Shown: in pieces, positions 1 to 3,497 of the stretch
How the letters are laid out: every line of letters starts with the position of its first letter
How positions within the stretch are numbered: position 1 is the first letter of the stretch
UHGV virus genome: UHGV-0203747
DNA length: 18,524 bases
Source of the DNA: a virus
Strand: one strand, 5' to 3'
Notes under the pieces: model-generated
The model's input: only the letters and a program-made list of their open reading frames with translations
Database searches by the model: none
Told to the model about the DNA's origin: nothing
Program-made: the position numbers and the translations under genes

Positions 1-1311
1 AAATGATACAGTTATTATATTTTTCAAGAAAATAAATAAAAAGAATTCAAGACTCTCCCTTGCCATAAAAAATGAAAAAGGCATTGTCATAAGTGCAGCT
101 ATTTGTAATACACCAACTCTCCTCATCAATATGATTTTATCAAGAAATCTAAAAACAACGCCTGAGATAACATATGAGCACCAGAAAAAATACTTTCCGA
201 AAATAACAAGCGATGACCCAAGCAAAGTTGATGCCATATTCAATCCATTGCTAAGACCAAGAGCACTCACGGTAAAGTAATATGAGCTATTCATTGTGAC
301 AATTGGTTTGTCAGACCATATGAATCTTGGGATAAACCCTGAAAATTGAGTAAAGAAATAATAAATACCACCAACATTGCGATCATTGCTAAAGTATTTA
401 ACAGCTATACTCTGATAATTGATAGGAGATACGCTATCAGCTAAATATCTGACTATAATGCCAAAAAGAGAGCCAGACGCTGAAATATCAACATCTGAGT
501 ATCTCACTATAGCCATTACACCAATTAGAATTAAGCACACAGAGCCTATGCATATTAATTTCAACATGCCAATTAAGCCTCTAGAGTGGCAAATAAGAGC
601 AACAATAAACATTGCCGAAAACATTACATTTCTTGAGCCACCAATAAGTACGTAATATGCCATCCCAAATAACAATGACATTATAATTGATTTAACGAAC
701 ACATACTTATCGTCAGATGTAATTGCATACACTATAACAGCAGAAACAAAAGATGACATTATCATTATAATGACACCACTACCAGCATTCCCGCCAAGCT
801 TTAAAGCATAATCATCAGAATTAAAAGATATGCCGTTTATGGCATAAAAAGCCATCATCCCAACAAAACTTAAAAACAACGTTGTTCTTACAAATAATTT
901 TGGGCTACCAATAAAATATTTATCAGAAAAAGTTATTTTATTTCTTCCTGCCGCTGTATGAGAGAATACATAAAACAAAACTATACCAATAAACGACAAC
1001 GTAGACACATCATTTATATATTGATACGGCATATATTCTGCAGAACTAACTTTTGCCCCAACTCTAAACGGAAGCGATATATACCCAAAAAAATGAGTAA
1101 AAACGAGGAATAACATCCCAACAGATTTGAATGACACGCCATGTTTTTTGAATGACACGGCACTTAGATATATTAATATTATGGCATACAACGCAGGTAG
1201 CACATAAGTAAAAAATGATTCATAAATATTCATAATATTGTATGTAAAAATGACTATTTTTACCCGATCTTTAAAGAAAGTACAGGATGATAGCGCGTTT
1301 CTACGCGCCAT
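1..1311 (-). CDS. Polytopic integral membrane protein, N-terminal 437 codons only (3' end lies beyond the window edge); candidate O-antigen-processing/modifying protein (Wzy-, Wzx- or GtrC-like), function unconfirmed
   Basis: Hand translation of the minus strand from ATG at 1311..1309 (a second in-frame ATG is at 1314..1312) to position 1 gives 437 codons with no stop, in DNA of roughly 20-30% G+C where random frames would be full of stops. Product begins MARRNALSSCTFFKDRVKIVIFTYNIM... and has at least 9-10 long hydrophobic stretches (e.g. VLPALYAIILIYLSAVSF, GSGVIIMIMSSFVSAVIVYAIT, MFSAMFIVALICHSRGLIGMLKLICIGSVCLILIGVMAIV). SD AAGGTGA (complement of 1317-1323) sits 5 nt before the 1311 ATG. 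Missing from the ORF track presumably because the stop is outside the window. Family assignment is inference from size, topology, AT-richness and position. Confidence 0.7.
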   Translation of the reverse strand, partial: MARRNALSSCTFFKDRVKIVIFTYNIMNIYESFFTYVLPALYAIILIYLSAVSFKKHGVSFKSVGMLFLVFTHFFGYISLPFRVGAKVSSAEYMPYQYINDVSTLSFIGIVLFYVFSHTAAGRNKITFSDKYFIGSPKLFVRTTLFLSFVGMMAFYAINGISFNSDDYALKLGGNAGSGVIIMIMSSFVSAVIVYAITSDDKYVFVKSIIMSLLFGMAYYVLIGGSRNVMFSAMFIVALICHSRGLIGMLKLICIGSVCLILIGVMAIVRYSDVDISASGSLFGIIVRYLADSVSPINYQSIAVKYFSNDRNVGGIYYFFTQFSGFIPRFIWSDKPIVTMNSSYYFTVSALGLSNGLNMASTLLGSSLVIFGKYFFWCSYVISGVVFRFLDKIILMRRVGVLQIAALMTMPFSFFMARESLEFFLFIFLKNIITVSF

Positions 1312-1316
1312 CATAG

Positions 1317-3497
1317 TCACCTTACAACAAATTTGCCATTGCTAATGTCGTTAACTAGTGTTGCCACTATGTTAGCAACATCCTTCGTAGATAGGGTGTT
1401 TACGTCTCCACCGCGTAACGCACCGGAATTGGTAAATGGATACTGCTGAGGTTGTGAGCTATTGGCAAACTGGTTGTTAGCCTCATAACGTTTTGTTGGT
1501 ACAAGGTTGTACCCAATACTGCCTGTGGTTGTGTCAGGAGCCACGCAGTTCGTAATGTTCACTATAGCGGCAGAACCACTACCATTTGTATATATTGGCC
1601 TGTTAACTGTCCCGAATGGTTGCACAGCTACCAGTCTGTTAACAATAACACTATGTGTGGCTAGTGCCTGTAAATAAGATTCTGCGCTCCCGTTGCACCC
1701 CCTCAAGTTCACATTATCAACCTCTATGTGGCGGCAGTTAATGGTGACGATATAATGACCATTTTCTGTGTTAGGGTAAGCGCCTACTATGCGAACATTT
1801 TTTAATGTTAAATCTGTGGTTGGCACCGCAGCAGGCCCACCGTTGAAAACAAACCCTTTTGCACCATTTGCAAGTGCGTGTATCGTAATGCCGTCAAACT
1901 CGATGTCGGCAAGATTAGTCGTGGTATTGGCTGAGTTTGCCAAAAAATAAACAGCCTCAGCAGAGCAACCTGATATCAAGAAGTTAGAAAAACGCATCCT
2001 TGTGTTTTCTACCGGATAGAAGCGGCATAACAAACCCTGCGAGCAGTTACGAATAACAACGTTATCATAGGATACGTCACTAGCTCCTTCAATTGCGACA
2101 CCTGCATTCGAACTTTCTACATATAGTCCAGTAACTACTCCATTACGGAAATTCCCACGAATCCCGTGGCTTTCACAGTTTTTGATTGTGGCGGCGTTTA
2201 TGTTAACTCTTGTAATAGCTGTCCCTTCCCCGCTTCCGTTCACAAGGTCGTCTGATTGAACACGCAAACCGTTACCGCCAGAGGTATTAATGCTCACATC
2301 GTGAATCATAAGATTAAGAGTACGGTTTGGCCGGTGTGATGAGAAGAACAAAGATGAGGCCCAAGTGTTTCTGCAACGGATATGATGGACGTGCGCCTCT
2401 GTAGGGTCATTGACAATGATCGCCATGCCAGTGCGGTTGCTGCCATCTGGATCTTGAATTTTCCCACGACCACAATCATGTGAGTACAGATTATCGGCAA
2501 GAACCCATCTCCCATAATCCATCGTTACGTTGCTATTCCATGCCCCCTGCAATTCACACCCTGAAAGCTCAAGTGTACCTGCAGATTGCATGGCCAAACC
2601 AACCCCTGGGTCAAATGAAGCATTCTGCCGATAAAAATCAAACAAGAAATTACCGACAATGCGTATATCATATGGAGTATAGTCAAACTCTTGATTTGAT
2701 TCGTTCCATGTCCGTGGGGATCTGAGCCATAATTGTCTGGAATCTACCGTCACTTTTGGCAATAACGGCTTTATGAGGATGTCTCCCTGAATATTAAATA
2801 TACCTTCTACAGTTACGGGAGAGTAAGCGATCCCGATATTTCCAGATAGTGGAAGTAGTCTACTAAGTTGAGCGTCATTTTGTGCAATTTTCCAACCAGA
2901 ATTAACCTCATTAAAAAATGATATTGGGTAAAGTTCAATATTATCATTAATTACAGTTGAGTCATAACTGGTAATTGTCAATGGTGATGATAATGGTGTG
3001 CTCATCATCATAAGGGCGCCATCAAGCCTAACGAATCTTACACCTTCGGGAATTAAGTCTCCTATTTTTGCATCAATTCCAATTTTATTAGGATAAACCT
3101 CACCACCTAAAAATCCATTCATTCCTCGAAGCCAAGATAGATTTAACATGACTGATAACTGATCTGGATCGTACTTCAGCACATTAGGGAAATAGAACTG
3201 CTGTGATCCATATGCATCGTACACAGCCATAGAATGCCCTTGTACAGTAACGAACTTAGCAATCTGTCCGTTATATACAGGATAACCAGCAGCGTTAATG
3301 ATGATTGGTTGAGAAACAGGAACGTGAGAACCGTCTTCGTTCTCCACATAAACCTGAATCTGGTTTTCAGAATTTACCGGGTCAGTGTCAATTTTTCCGA
3401 TATAAATTTTGCCATTGGCTACGGCTTTAAAAGAACGAGCCATAGTGAAGAGTTGCGAAGGCATGCTTACCACAACATTGGCTGTAATGTCTGTCAT
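1317..3497 (-). CDS. Tailspike protein: P22/Sf6-type N-terminal head-binding domain fused to a divergent beta-helix receptor-binding (probable O-antigen depolymerase) domain
   Basis: 726-aa ORF with ATG at 3497..3495. The first ~115 residues ([11 protein letters not shown]...[20 protein letters not shown]...VLKYDPDQ) match the P22 gp9 head-binding domain as I recall it. The remainder is rich in repeated N-x-x-V/I motifs typical of right-handed beta-helix tailspikes. Last structural gene of the operon, as in Sf6. Confidence 0.9.

What the first reader, a model, noticed from the sequence alone, without database searches (positions are those of the whole stretch)
1300..1330. Tailspike stop codon embedded in the ribosome-binding site of the membrane gene, at a sharp composition boundary
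On the minus strand the junction reads AAGGTGA-CT-ATG-ATG: the tailspike TGA stop (1319-1317) lies inside the SD of the membrane gene, whose ATG follows 2-5 nt later. That is a translational-coupling arrangement, implying expression from late-operon read-through rather than only from a lysogenic promoter. This differs from P22, where gtrABC is convergent with gene 9. G+C drops abruptly at the same point, marking a recombination or moron junction.
Basis: seen in the sequence. Interest (0 to 1): 0.45.

Follow-up and report, generated by a model that had tools for sequence, protein, structure and literature searches.

The report
Tailspike terminator hairpin before prophage wzy
The "overlapping stop/start" is real as a string of letters, but the two ATGs form one arm of a strong hairpin that ends the phage tailspike gene. 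The downstream membrane gene is a sugar-chain polymerase (Wzy type), most likely starts 81 bases further on, and is an ordinary add-on gene of a P22-like E. coli prophage.

Summary
The sequence is as described. On the minus strand, AAGGTGA (1323-1317) holds the tailspike TGA, followed by CT, ATG (1314) and ATG (1311), in frame with the downstream ORF.

- **The gene.** It is a WzyE-family polysaccharide polymerase, not gtr.
- **The ATGATG.** It is the 5' arm of a 12-bp hairpin (1314-1287, -18 kcal/mol). Every related tailspike examined has a terminator-type hairpin at this position.
- **The start codon.** No homologue shares the 27-codon N-terminal extension, and Wzy relatives start at the residue matching ATG 1233.
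- **The motif without wzy.** AAGGTGA-NN-ATGATG plus a degenerate copy of the hairpin occurs after a related tailspike with no wzy. The sister cassette L006 has AGA-TAA, no nearby ATG and a textbook terminator.

Translational coupling is therefore unlikely.
- The co-directional order is unusual. Sf6, HK620, epsilon34 and Sf101 all have convergent conversion genes.
- G+C drops from 0.43 to 0.33.
- Comparative breakpoints at about 1286, 1346 and 1403 show a module boundary here.

How wzy is transcribed is unresolved, because no promoter scores above chance. Leaky read-through is plausible, since the hairpin abuts the stop codon. Overall this is an ordinary feature with a start-codon annotation problem.

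The parts
1317..3497 (-). Tailspike gene (726 aa). The P22-type head-binding domain is aa 1-113 (about 3159-3497). The receptor-binding/beta-helix part is aa 120-726 (1320-3140).
   Evidence: ORF. Pfam Head_binding 1.5e-66. Only 3157-3600 matches known P22-like phages at DNA level. The receptor-binding part is 70% identical to the L006 tailspike, up to the same last residue. PHROG tail protein.
1317..1323 (-). AAGGTGA: the last Arg codon (AGG) plus the TGA stop (1319-1317). It resembles an SD sequence.
   Evidence: Duplex with anti-SD is -4.8 kcal/mol. Relatives read AGG-TGA (L025, no wzy), AGG-TAG (L024, no wzy) and AGA-TAA (L006, with wzy).
1309..1314 (-). They are in frame with wzy and lie inside the hairpin's 5' arm.
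   Evidence: PGAP uses ATG 1314 in some genomes (453 aa) and ATG 1233 in another (426 aa).
1287..1314 (-). 12-bp stem-loop ATGATGGCGCGT / AGAA / ACGCGCTATCAT, with one G-U pair. It starts 2 nt after the stop and is most likely the late-operon terminator or a 3'-end hairpin.
   Evidence: terminator-like. -18.0 kcal/mol alone. -20.7 in a 53-nt context, z -4.8, 0/200 shuffles. Unique in the window. Positional equivalents in L006, L024, CobraSix, epsilon34, Sf6, Sf101 and HK620 tR'.
1273..1286 (-). Pyrimidine-rich tail CCTGTACTTTCTTT after the stem. It is a poor U-tract.
   Evidence: Compare ATTTTGCTTT in L006 and CTTCTTCT in epsilon34.
1287..1346 (-). Shared 60-nt boundary block: the last 9 tailspike codons, the stop and the hairpin. 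It is common to tailspikes with and without wzy, and to wzy cassettes joined to different tailspike bodies.
   Evidence: Alignment A4 and identity profile. L025 homology ends at about 1286. L027 is identical from about 1346 downward, and L026 from about 1403.
1234..1286 (-). A+T-rich leader between the hairpin and the wzy start. It has no SD and no promoter above chance.
   Evidence: G+C 0.20 at 1210-1269.
1..1233 (-). wzy-like polymerase gene (WzyE family), with its most likely start at ATG 1233-1231. The window cuts off the last 48 nt (full length 426 aa).
   Evidence: Pfam PF06899. PGAP 426-aa call. Homologue N-termini. pN/pS 0.10-0.18. 12 hydrophobic segments.
1216..1235 (-). Imperfect 10-nt tandem repeat TTATGAATAT/TTATGAATCA spanning the wzy start. 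One copy is deleted in strains E94 and E92.
   Evidence: D2. The deletion puts both ATG 1314 and ATG 1233 out of frame, and PGAP then starts at GTG 1203.
1310..1339 (-). Best promoter-like match near the junction: ATGGCA-18-TATGAT. It would start transcripts inside the hairpin. It is not above chance.
   Evidence: 9/12. PWM score 7.9 against a shuffle median of 8.1 for the best hit.

Best explanation
The junction is the 3' end of the late (virion) operon of a P22-like E. coli prophage, followed by a separate lysogenic-conversion gene.

**Shown.**
- The tailspike stops at TGA 1319-1317.
- Two bases later a 12-bp G+C-cored hairpin (1314-1287) begins. The 'ATGATG' is the outer part of its 5' arm.
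- The next gene is a WzyE-family polysaccharide polymerase under purifying selection.
- Its conserved N-terminus corresponds to ATG 1233, 81 nt beyond the stop.

**Inferred.**
- The hairpin acts as the late-operon terminator or 3'-end stabiliser, like the hairpins that sit 0-10 nt after the stop of the related tailspikes. HK620, whose annotated tR' lies about 100 nt downstream, is the exception.
- wzy is translated at a low level, without an SD, from an unstructured A+T-rich leader, as is usual for wzy genes.
- The hairpin abuts the stop codon and has a weak U-tract. Termination should therefore be leaky whenever the tailspike is being translated or the Q-type antiterminator is active, so wzy is probably co-transcribed late in lytic growth.
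- In the lysogen wzy must rely on a weak promoter that has not been identified.

**History of the locus.** Receptor-binding domain, hairpin and wzy sit in the same co-directional order in CobraSix-like siphophages. This suggests a common origin for that layout and would explain why the orientation differs from P22, Sf6, HK620 and epsilon34. The stretch 1287-1346 serves as the module boundary where recombination has repeatedly joined different partners.
For: **The hairpin.**
- It is flagged as terminator-like.
- It folds at -18.0 kcal/mol alone.
- In a 53-nt context it folds at -20.7, z -4.8, with 0/200 shuffles as stable.

**Terminator-type hairpins after related tailspike stops.**
- L006: TAA+9 nt, GGCGCGC-aacaa-GCGCGCC-ATTTTGCTTT.
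- L024: canonical terminator.
- CobraSix-like loci.
- epsilon34: annotated Rho-independent terminator abutting the stop, also ATG...CAT-capped.
- Sf6 and Sf101.
- HK620: annotated tR'.

**The wzy start.**
- The Pfam match puts profile position 1 at aa 28.
- P0003 and the CobraSix homologues (55-56% identical) start at the aligned Met, with an in-frame stop 7 codons upstream.
- In the HMMER search of 1.84 billion representatives, no hit aligns to aa 1-21, and P0133 residue 1 aligns to aa 28.
- PGAP chose ATG 1233 in strain J31.

**The motif is not tied to wzy.**
- L025 keeps AAGGTGA-TT-ATGATG with no wzy, and its ORF stops after 13 codons.
- L006 has wzy but AGA-TAA and no ATG at the stop.

**Energetics and substitutions.**
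- Opening cost is 25.6 kcal/mol at ATG 1314/1311 against 7.4 at ATG 1233.
- The only two substitutions seen in the extension (1269 G>T, 1281 A>G) are both nonsynonymous in that frame. wzy itself has pN/pS 0.10-0.18.

**Literature.**
- Moving a stop codon to 5 bp before a terminator cut termination from about 90% to under 10% (PMC4824070).
- Low G+C and poor initiation signals are typical of wzy genes (PMC12004945).
- The same G+C drop is seen in L006 and CobraSix.
Against: - **Weak U-tract.** The tail is CCTGTACTTTCTTT, so efficient intrinsic termination is not assured.
- **No transcript data.** No termination or transcript-end data exist for this locus.
- **No promoter.** No promoter for wzy scores above shuffled sequence, so how the gene is expressed in a lysogen is unexplained.
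- **No SD at ATG 1233.** ATG 1233 also lies in a 9-bp A/U inverted repeat.
- **Coupling layout is present.** ATG 1314 is in frame with no stop. It has an SD-like sequence at good aligned spacing. A start codon hidden in a hairpin next to a stop codon is the classical arrangement for ribosome-opened coupling.
- **Annotation precedent.** PGAP and other gene callers pick ATG 1314 in most genomes.
- **No substitution signal.** E. coli-type copies are almost invariant across the junction, so substitution patterns cannot discriminate.
- **L025 hairpin is degenerate.** It folds at -9.5 kcal/mol, z -0.4. The motif there could be a relic of a lost wzy.
Confidence: 0.72

Rival explanations
1. wzy is translated from AUG 1314 or 1311 by ribosomes that have just terminated at the tailspike UGA. 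The terminating ribosome melts the hairpin that otherwise hides the start codon. This would give a 453-aa Wzy whose synthesis is tied to late-operon expression.
For: - **Stop-start distance.** It is 2-5 nt.
- **SD.** AGGUGA gives -4.8 kcal/mol.
- **Open frame.** The frame is open all the way into wzy.
- **Sequestered start.** The start codon sits in a stable hairpin, as in classical coupled pairs.
- **Annotation.** Gene callers and PGAP annotate the 453-aa form in several genomes.
Against: - **Extension has no homologue.** This holds for the 71 HMMER hits and for the Pfam profile.
- **55% homologues.** They have an in-frame stop just upstream of the conserved Met.
- **L006.** The sister cassette lacks the SD and the ATG.
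- **L025.** It has the same motif without wzy.
- **Substitutions.** The two observed in the extension are both nonsynonymous.
- **Biology.** A conversion gene expressed only during lytic growth would not convert the lysogen.
Confidence: 0.1
2. The hairpin does not terminate. It is only a conserved recombination linker or RNA-stability element. wzy is transcribed wholly by read-through of transcripts that start upstream, either from the late operon or from a constitutive promoter inside the tailspike 3' end such as ATGGCA-18-TATGAT at 1339-1310. That promoter would start RNA inside the hairpin and so bypass it.
For: - **Weak U-tract**.
- **Ribosome repression.** The hairpin is 2 nt from the stop, where ribosomes are known to repress terminators.
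- **Module boundary.** The shared 60-nt block coincides with recombination breakpoints.
- **No downstream promoter.** None is detectable between the hairpin and ATG 1233.
- **Candidate promoter.** One overlaps the hairpin's 5' arm.
Against: - **Related hairpins are terminators.** Hairpins at the same place in relatives are canonical, with good U-tracts (L006, L024), or are annotated as terminators (epsilon34, HK620).
- **Candidate promoter is at chance level.** It scores 7.9 against a shuffle median of 8.1, and it is absent from L006.
- **Own promoter-like sites in relatives.** L006 and CobraSix have them downstream of their hairpins. These also score near chance.
Confidence: 0.15
3. wzy is an untranslated remnant, and the junction has no expression logic at all.
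For: - **Derived disruptions.** E94/E92 carry a 10-nt frameshifting deletion at the start. STEC306-308 carry a second copy truncated after about 126 nt.
- **Weak signals.** There is no SD and no clear promoter.
Against: - **Intact in most genomes.** It is a full-length ORF in 25 of 27 complete genomes.
- **Purifying selection.** pN/pS is 0.10-0.18, the same as the tailspike.
- **Conserved family residues.** They are shared with homologues down to 33% identity.
Confidence: 0.03

Closest known systems
Terminators that follow the tailspike gene of P22-like phages (HK620 tR' 'terminator of late transcription'; the epsilon34 Rho-independent terminator abutting gene 19; the Sf6 bidirectional hairpin between gene 14 and oac)
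   Same: A G+C-rich hairpin lies a few bases after the tailspike stop. The epsilon34 hairpin, ATGCGGCGA-AAAA-TCGCCGCAT + CTTCTTCT, even shares the ATG...CAT cap and the weak pyrimidine tail.
   Different: In those phages the next gene is convergent, so the hairpin serves both transcripts. Here the next gene runs the same way, so any leak feeds into it. The stem is longer (12 bp) and the sequence is unrelated.
Phage-borne O-antigen or capsule polymerases used for lysogenic conversion: HK620 hkcF (annotated record); Salmonella epsilon15 and Pseudomonas D3 beta-polymerases (my own knowledge; D3 is cited in PMC7685785); Acinetobacter phage Wzy (PMC9241936)
   Same: A Wzy-type multi-pass membrane polymerase of low G+C is carried next to the receptor-binding protein and the integration module of a temperate phage.
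   Different: This protein is in the Pfam WzyE family, has no PHROG family and is not similar at DNA level to any P22-like phage in the collection. It is co-directional with the tailspike, whereas hkcF is convergent. No polymerase inhibitor partner has been identified, and its function is untested.
Enterobacter siphophage vB_EclS_CobraSix and related prophages (L010, L016-L020), and the L006 contig
   Same: The order and direction are the same: tail spike or fibre, hairpin, wzy. Wzy is 55-59% identical. L006 also shares the receptor-binding domain (70%) and the same C-terminal residues.
   Different: They have a different virion type and a different N-terminal adaptor (Tail_spike_N rather than Head_binding). 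Their terminator U-tracts are better. They have promoter-like sites between the hairpin and wzy. None has an ATG at the stop codon.
Translationally coupled gene pairs with a stop-start overlap or near-overlap and a sequestered start codon (for example trpB-trpA, or the MS2 coat/lysis/replicase genes; my own knowledge)
   Same: A stop codon lies 2-5 nt before an AUG. An SD sits in the upstream coding sequence, and the AUG is buried in a stem that a terminating ribosome would open.
   Different: The protein segment that this AUG would add is not conserved in any relative, and the arrangement is absent from orthologous cassettes.
Morons of temperate phages (Juhala/Hendrix concept; my own knowledge)
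   Same: It is an extra gene of deviant G+C, present in some relatives and absent in others, bracketed by hairpins.
   Different: The defining own promoter could not be shown here.

Membership tests
Intrinsic (Rho-independent) terminator | Stable G+C-rich stem with a short loop | tested here: met
   12 bp with a 6 G-C core and a 4-nt loop. -18.0 kcal/mol alone, z -4.8 in context.
Intrinsic (Rho-independent) terminator | U-tract directly after the stem | tested here: inconclusive
   The tail is CCTGTACTTTCTTT. It only just passes the scan rule of 5 T in 8 and is much weaker than L006 ATTTTGCTTT.
Intrinsic (Rho-independent) terminator | RNA 3' ends are formed there in vivo or in vitro | not testable with these tools
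   Needs Term-seq, 3'-RACE or in vitro transcription.
Translationally coupled gene pair | Stop and start within a few nt, with an SD in the upstream gene | tested here: met
   TGA-CT-ATG-ATG. AGGUGA duplex is -4.8 kcal/mol.
Translationally coupled gene pair | The coupled AUG is the genuine N-terminus of the downstream protein (conserved in homologues) | tested here: not met
   No homologue aligns to aa 1-21. Homologues start at or after aa 28. CobraSix-type genes have an in-frame stop upstream.
Translationally coupled gene pair | The arrangement is kept in orthologous loci and is tied to the presence of the downstream gene | tested here: not met
   L006 has wzy but AGA-TAA and no ATG. L025 has the motif without wzy.
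Wzy / WzyE-family polysaccharide polymerase | Sequence match to the family profile above the curated threshold | tested here: met
   PF06899, 67.6 bits against a cutoff of 25, E 1.4e-18. NCBI names relatives 'WzyE family oligosaccharide polymerase'.
Wzy / WzyE-family polysaccharide polymerase | Multi-pass inner-membrane protein | tested here: met
   12 partly overlapping hydrophobic segments by a crude Kyte-Doolittle scan. No dedicated topology predictor was run.
Wzy / WzyE-family polysaccharide polymerase | Polymerises undecaprenyl-linked repeat units, changing the O-antigen linkage | not testable with these tools
   Needs LPS gels, NMR or serology of lysogens with and without wzy.
Moron (lysogenic-conversion add-on gene) | Composition differs from the surrounding phage genome | tested here: met
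   0.329 against 0.479 for the window.
Moron (lysogenic-conversion add-on gene) | Present or absent between otherwise related phages | tested here: met
   L025 and L024 have related tailspikes with no wzy. The break lies at about 1286.
Moron (lysogenic-conversion add-on gene) | Own promoter active in the lysogen | tested here: inconclusive
   No site scores above shuffled sequence.
P22-like (Lederbergvirus-type) tailspike | N-terminal head-binding domain | tested here: met
   PF09008, 1.5e-66, aa 1-113. About 90% DNA identity to Sf6 and HK620 over 3157-3600.
   The only Pfam hit of the downstream ORF is WzyE.

The most novel reading that the evidence does not exclude
The hairpin is a ribosome-gated switch.
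- While the tailspike is being translated, the ribosome stopping at UGA covers the hairpin's 5' arm.
- This both suppresses termination and exposes AUG 1314/1311, so lytic cells would make read-through RNA and an N-terminally extended 453-aa Wzy.
- Lysogens would make only the short form from AUG 1233.

That would be one polymerase gene with two expression modes set by the state of the upstream gene.
Probability: 0.07. Interest if true: 0.55.

Novelty: new member of a known kind. Interest (0 to 1): 0.22.

Why it matters
**Annotation.** RefSeq carries this polymerase with three different starts (453, 426 and 417 aa) in near-identical prophages. The comparative evidence favours the 426-aa form.

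**Biology.** A WzyE-family polymerase sits co-directionally behind the tailspike in a P22-like prophage found in 27 of 5426 complete E. coli genomes. Receptor-binding domain, hairpin and polymerase occur in the same order in Enterobacter siphophages. This is a compact example of a phage carrying, side by side, the protein that reads a surface polysaccharide and an enzyme that probably rewrites it.

**Practical use.** It flags these strains as candidates for prophage-driven O-antigen variation that rfb-based in-silico serotyping would miss.

**The junction itself.** The stop/start overlap that prompted the finding is ordinary.

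Tried and rejected
- **Substitution test on the 27-codon extension.** E. coli-type copies are almost invariant across 1234-1316, with 1 segregating site in 9 sequences plus 1 in L026. There is no statistical power.
- **Search for more diverged wzy loci.**
  - The genome-contig scan with the alignment found nothing.
  - Metagenome contigs added only identical copies and a fragment.
  - Viral contigs gave only CobraSix-like prophages and one E. coli-type copy (97.9% identical over 1-1700).
- **Exact-pattern scans for the tailspike end.** They found only that same E. 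coli-type IMG/VR contig and a chance hit in a Nitrospirae MAG regulator gene.
- **Promoter search.** The consensus scan and my own PWM scan found no site above shuffled sequence in the window. The sites in L006 and CobraSix are likewise near chance.
- **Rfam on 1000-1700.** No match.
- **Kapi1 as the same element.** Rejected. Kapi1 is a P22-like phage at argW that alters LPS, but it carries an acyltransferase-like gene between tailspike and integrase, not wzy.
- **G+C drop as a recent recombination scar exactly at the stop codon.**
  - Rejected in that form.
  - The same drop occurs in L006 and CobraSix, and low G+C is a general trait of wzy genes.
  - The real breakpoints are at about 1286, 1346, 1403 and 3157.
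- **E94/E92 10-nt deletion as a discriminator between the two starts.** Rejected, because it frameshifts both.

Full report
**1. The observation**

All coordinates are on the minus strand. The window reads ...GTT GTA AGG TGA CT ATG ATG GCG CGT AGA AAC GCG CTA TCA TCC....
- The 726-aa ORF 3497..1317 ends with TGA at 1319-1317.
- AAGGTGA occupies 1323-1317.
- ATG codons lie at 1314-1312 and 1311-1309. Both are in frame with a long ORF that runs off the window start.

G+C also falls as described. The tailspike is 0.43, the downstream gene is 0.329 and the whole window is 0.479. There is a trough of 0.20 at 1210-1269.

**2. What the two genes are**

- **Upstream gene.** It has a P22-type head-binding domain (Pfam PF09008, 1.5e-66, aa 1-113). 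Only that part (3157-3600) matches known P22-like phages such as Sf6, HK620, CUS-3 and epsilon34 at DNA level.
- **Downstream gene.**
  - It is not gtr. Its only Pfam match is WzyE, the polysaccharide repeat-unit polymerase family (PF06899, 1.4e-18).
  - A crude hydropathy scan finds 12 partly overlapping hydrophobic segments.
  - It is under purifying selection, with pN/pS 0.10-0.18, the same as the tailspike.
- **Genomic setting.**
  - The unit sits in a prophage next to intS, at the argW tRNA-Arg gene in three of the five genome loci examined; in E94 and STEC308 the flanking genes differ.
  - It is present in 27 of 5426 complete E. coli genomes at 97-99% identity.

**3. The ATGATG is part of a hairpin**

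- Positions 1314-1287 form ATGATGGCGCGT / AGAA / ACGCGCTATCAT. This is 12 pairs with one G-U.
- It folds at -18.0 kcal/mol alone. In a 53-nt context it folds at -20.7, z -4.8, and none of 200 shuffles is as stable.
- It is unique in the window.
- Its tail, CCTGTACTTTCTTT, is a weak U-tract.
- Freeing positions -20 to +13 around ATG 1314 or 1311 costs about 25.6 kcal/mol, against 7.4 around ATG 1233.

**4. Where wzy really starts**

- The Pfam alignment (protein 37-400 to profile 10-373) puts profile position 1 at aa 28, which is ATG 1233-1231.
- The closest homologues:
  - P0003 (55% identical) starts MSDYTSIFTY, aligned with MNIYESFFTY.
  - Five more (33-39% identical, among them proteins from Vibrio and Photobacterium) start about five residues later.
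  - Only P0002 carries an extension, and it is unrelated in sequence.
- Five CobraSix-like prophage loci have an in-frame stop seven codons upstream of that Met.
- In a HMMER search of 1.84 billion representatives:
  - None of the 71 hits aligns to query residues 1-21.
  - Residue 1 of P0133 aligns to aa 28.
- RefSeq is inconsistent. It gives 453 aa from ATG 1314 in strains 90-1, STEC308 and 124. It gives 426 aa from ATG 1233 in J31, and 417 aa from GTG 1203 in E94.

**5. The motif is not tied to wzy**

- **L006** is a metagenomic contig with a tailspike whose receptor-binding part is 70% identical, up to the same final residues (...GKF[V/I]VR*). Its wzy is 59% identical.
  - It reads AGA TAA at the stop, with no ATG.
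  - It has a textbook terminator, GGCGCGC-aacaa-GCGCGCC-ATTTTGCTTT.
  - The conserved Met follows 88 nt after the stop.
- **L025** has a head-binding tailspike with an 86% identical receptor-binding part.
  - It keeps AAGGTGA-TT-ATGATG and a degenerate copy of the hairpin.
  - It has no wzy, and the ATG frame stops after 13 codons.
  - Homology to the window ends at about 1286.
- **L024** has a related receptor-binding part and no wzy. It has AGG-TAG followed by a canonical terminator.
- **Characterised P22-like phages** have a hairpin 3-10 nt after the tailspike stop in epsilon34, Sf6 and Sf101. In HK620 the annotated tR' 'terminator of late transcription' lies about 100 nt downstream.
  - epsilon34 carries ATGCGGCGA-AAAA-TCGCCGCAT + CTTCTTCT, annotated as Rho-independent.

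The stop-hairpin unit therefore belongs to the tailspike. The ATGs are stem bases, and the SD-like string is just the Arg codon AGG plus TGA.

**6. The module boundary**

- L026 and L027 are P22-like E. coli prophages whose tailspike bodies are only 51-86% identical in DNA.
- They become 99-100% identical to the window from about 1403 (L026) and about 1346 (L027) downward, through the hairpin and all of wzy.
- With the L025 break at about 1286, this defines a shared 60-nt block (1287-1346) where different partners have been joined.
- The other joint of the tailspike lies at the border between the head-binding and receptor-binding parts, at about 3157.
- The N-termini of the L006 and CobraSix spikes are Pfam Tail_spike_N. 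The order receptor-binding domain, hairpin, wzy is thus shared between siphophage-type and P22-type virions.
- This probably explains why wzy is co-directional here, whereas oac, gtrABC and hkcF are convergent in Sf6, Sf101, epsilon34 and HK620.
- The G+C drop recurs in L006 (0.474 to 0.358) and CobraSix (0.487 to 0.398). It is also a general trait of wzy genes (PMC12004945). It marks the gene, not a fresh scar at the stop codon.

**7. Likely mechanism**

*Shown:*
- the positions of the stop, the hairpin and the conserved start;
- selection acting on wzy;
- the module breakpoints.

*Inferred:*
- The hairpin ends or stabilises late transcripts.
- wzy is a separate cistron, poorly translated without an SD. 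ATG 1233 also lies in a 9-bp A/U inverted repeat.
- The stop codon is 2 nt from the stem. Moving a stop codon to 5 bp before terminator tR2 lowered termination from about 90% to under 10% (PMC4824070).
- Termination here should therefore leak whenever the tailspike is translated.

*Unresolved:*
- Expression in the lysogen needs a promoter, and I could not identify one.
- The best site, ATGGCA-18-TATGAT at 1339-1310, scores 7.9. The median best score in shuffles is 8.1.

**8. Rivals**

- **Translational coupling at AUG 1314/1311.**
  - It stays physically possible, because a terminating ribosome would open the stem.
  - The comparative data in sections 4-5 argue against it.
  - So does the fact that the only two substitutions seen in the extension (1269 G>T, 1281 A>G) are both nonsynonymous in that frame.
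- **A non-terminating hairpin with pure read-through** cannot be excluded without RNA data.
- **A dead gene** is contradicted by the selection signal. Derived disruptions do exist:
  - a 10-nt deletion in E94/E92;
  - a truncated second copy in STEC306-308.

**9. Comparison and novelty**

- The junction is a normal terminator-type hairpin after a tailspike gene.
- The downstream gene is a new member of the known class of phage-borne conversion polymerases (HK620 hkcF, epsilon15, D3, Acinetobacter phage Wzy).
- It is unusual among P22-like phages in running the same way as the tailspike, and it has no PHROG family.
- Rfam has nothing here.
- Interest is low for the stop/start overlap itself. 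It is modest for the cassette and for the annotation inconsistency.

Noticed in passing
window 1216-1235 (minus strand); L002 (E. coli E94), also E92: The wzy start lies in an imperfect 10-nt tandem repeat, TTATGAATAT/TTATGAATCA. Strains E94 and E92 have lost one copy. This frameshifts wzy relative to both ATG 1314 and ATG 1233, and PGAP then calls GTG 1203. It looks like a slippage-type knockout.
   Followed up: partly
L001, L003-L005, L002 (RefSeq annotations of the same gene): PGAP gives three different starts for near-identical wzy genes: 453 aa (ATG 1314), 426 aa (ATG 1233) and 417 aa (GTG 1203).
   Followed up: yes
L028 (E. coli STEC308, 1598017-1606297); also STEC306 and STEC307: These genomes hold a second copy of the tailspike and junction. 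In it wzy is cut off after about 126 nt and joined to a truncated intS. The full copy sits next to bioA-ybhB rather than argW. This points to a rearrangement between two prophages.
   Followed up: partly
L001 5604-5921 (just outside the window, between intS and wzy, convergent with wzy): A 105-aa hypothetical protein with an N-terminal hydrophobic helix and no PHROG match. It shares a hairpin (CGCACGC..GCGTGCG, L001 5929-5947) with the 3' end of wzy. It could be an accessory conversion factor, for example an inhibitor of the host polymerase. This is untested.
   Followed up: no
L010 (Enterobacter phage vB_EclS_CobraSix, OK499971, gene COBRASIX_26) and L016-L020: A 430-aa protein annotated 'hypothetical' directly after the tail-fibre gene is a WzyE-family polymerase, 55% identical to the one here. 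The layout is fibre, then hairpin, then TTTACT-16-TACAAT, then wzy, and it is conserved in five related IMG/VR prophages.
   Followed up: partly
window 1320-3140 compared with L024, L025, L026, L027 and L006: The same receptor-binding domain family (46-87% identical) is found on two different N-terminal adaptors, Head_binding and Tail_spike_N. Mosaic breakpoints also lie inside the receptor-binding domain. L026 is about 99-100% identical to the window over 2551-3150 but only 51-70% over 1500-2400.
   Followed up: partly
window 1231-1239 with 1175-1183; 1244-1251 with 1256-1263; 1313-1319 with 1251-1257: Small A/U-rich inverted repeats lie around the wzy start. One 9-bp perfect pair includes ATG 1233. 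TGACTAT, which spans the stop codon, can pair with ATAGTCA in the leader. A 121-nt fold of the whole junction has z -4.5.
   Followed up: no
window 3498-3661: Only 165 nt separate the gene-16-like injection gene from the tailspike. Close relatives carry immI-type genes (Arc, antirepressor) at this spot (strains 90-1, 124, E94; L026), so this is another variable slot of the prophage.
   Followed up: no
L030 (JADFXD010000085.1, Nitrospirae MAG) 327-347: The 21-nt tailspike-end pattern matched once by chance, inside an unrelated coding region. It is not a relative.
   Followed up: yes
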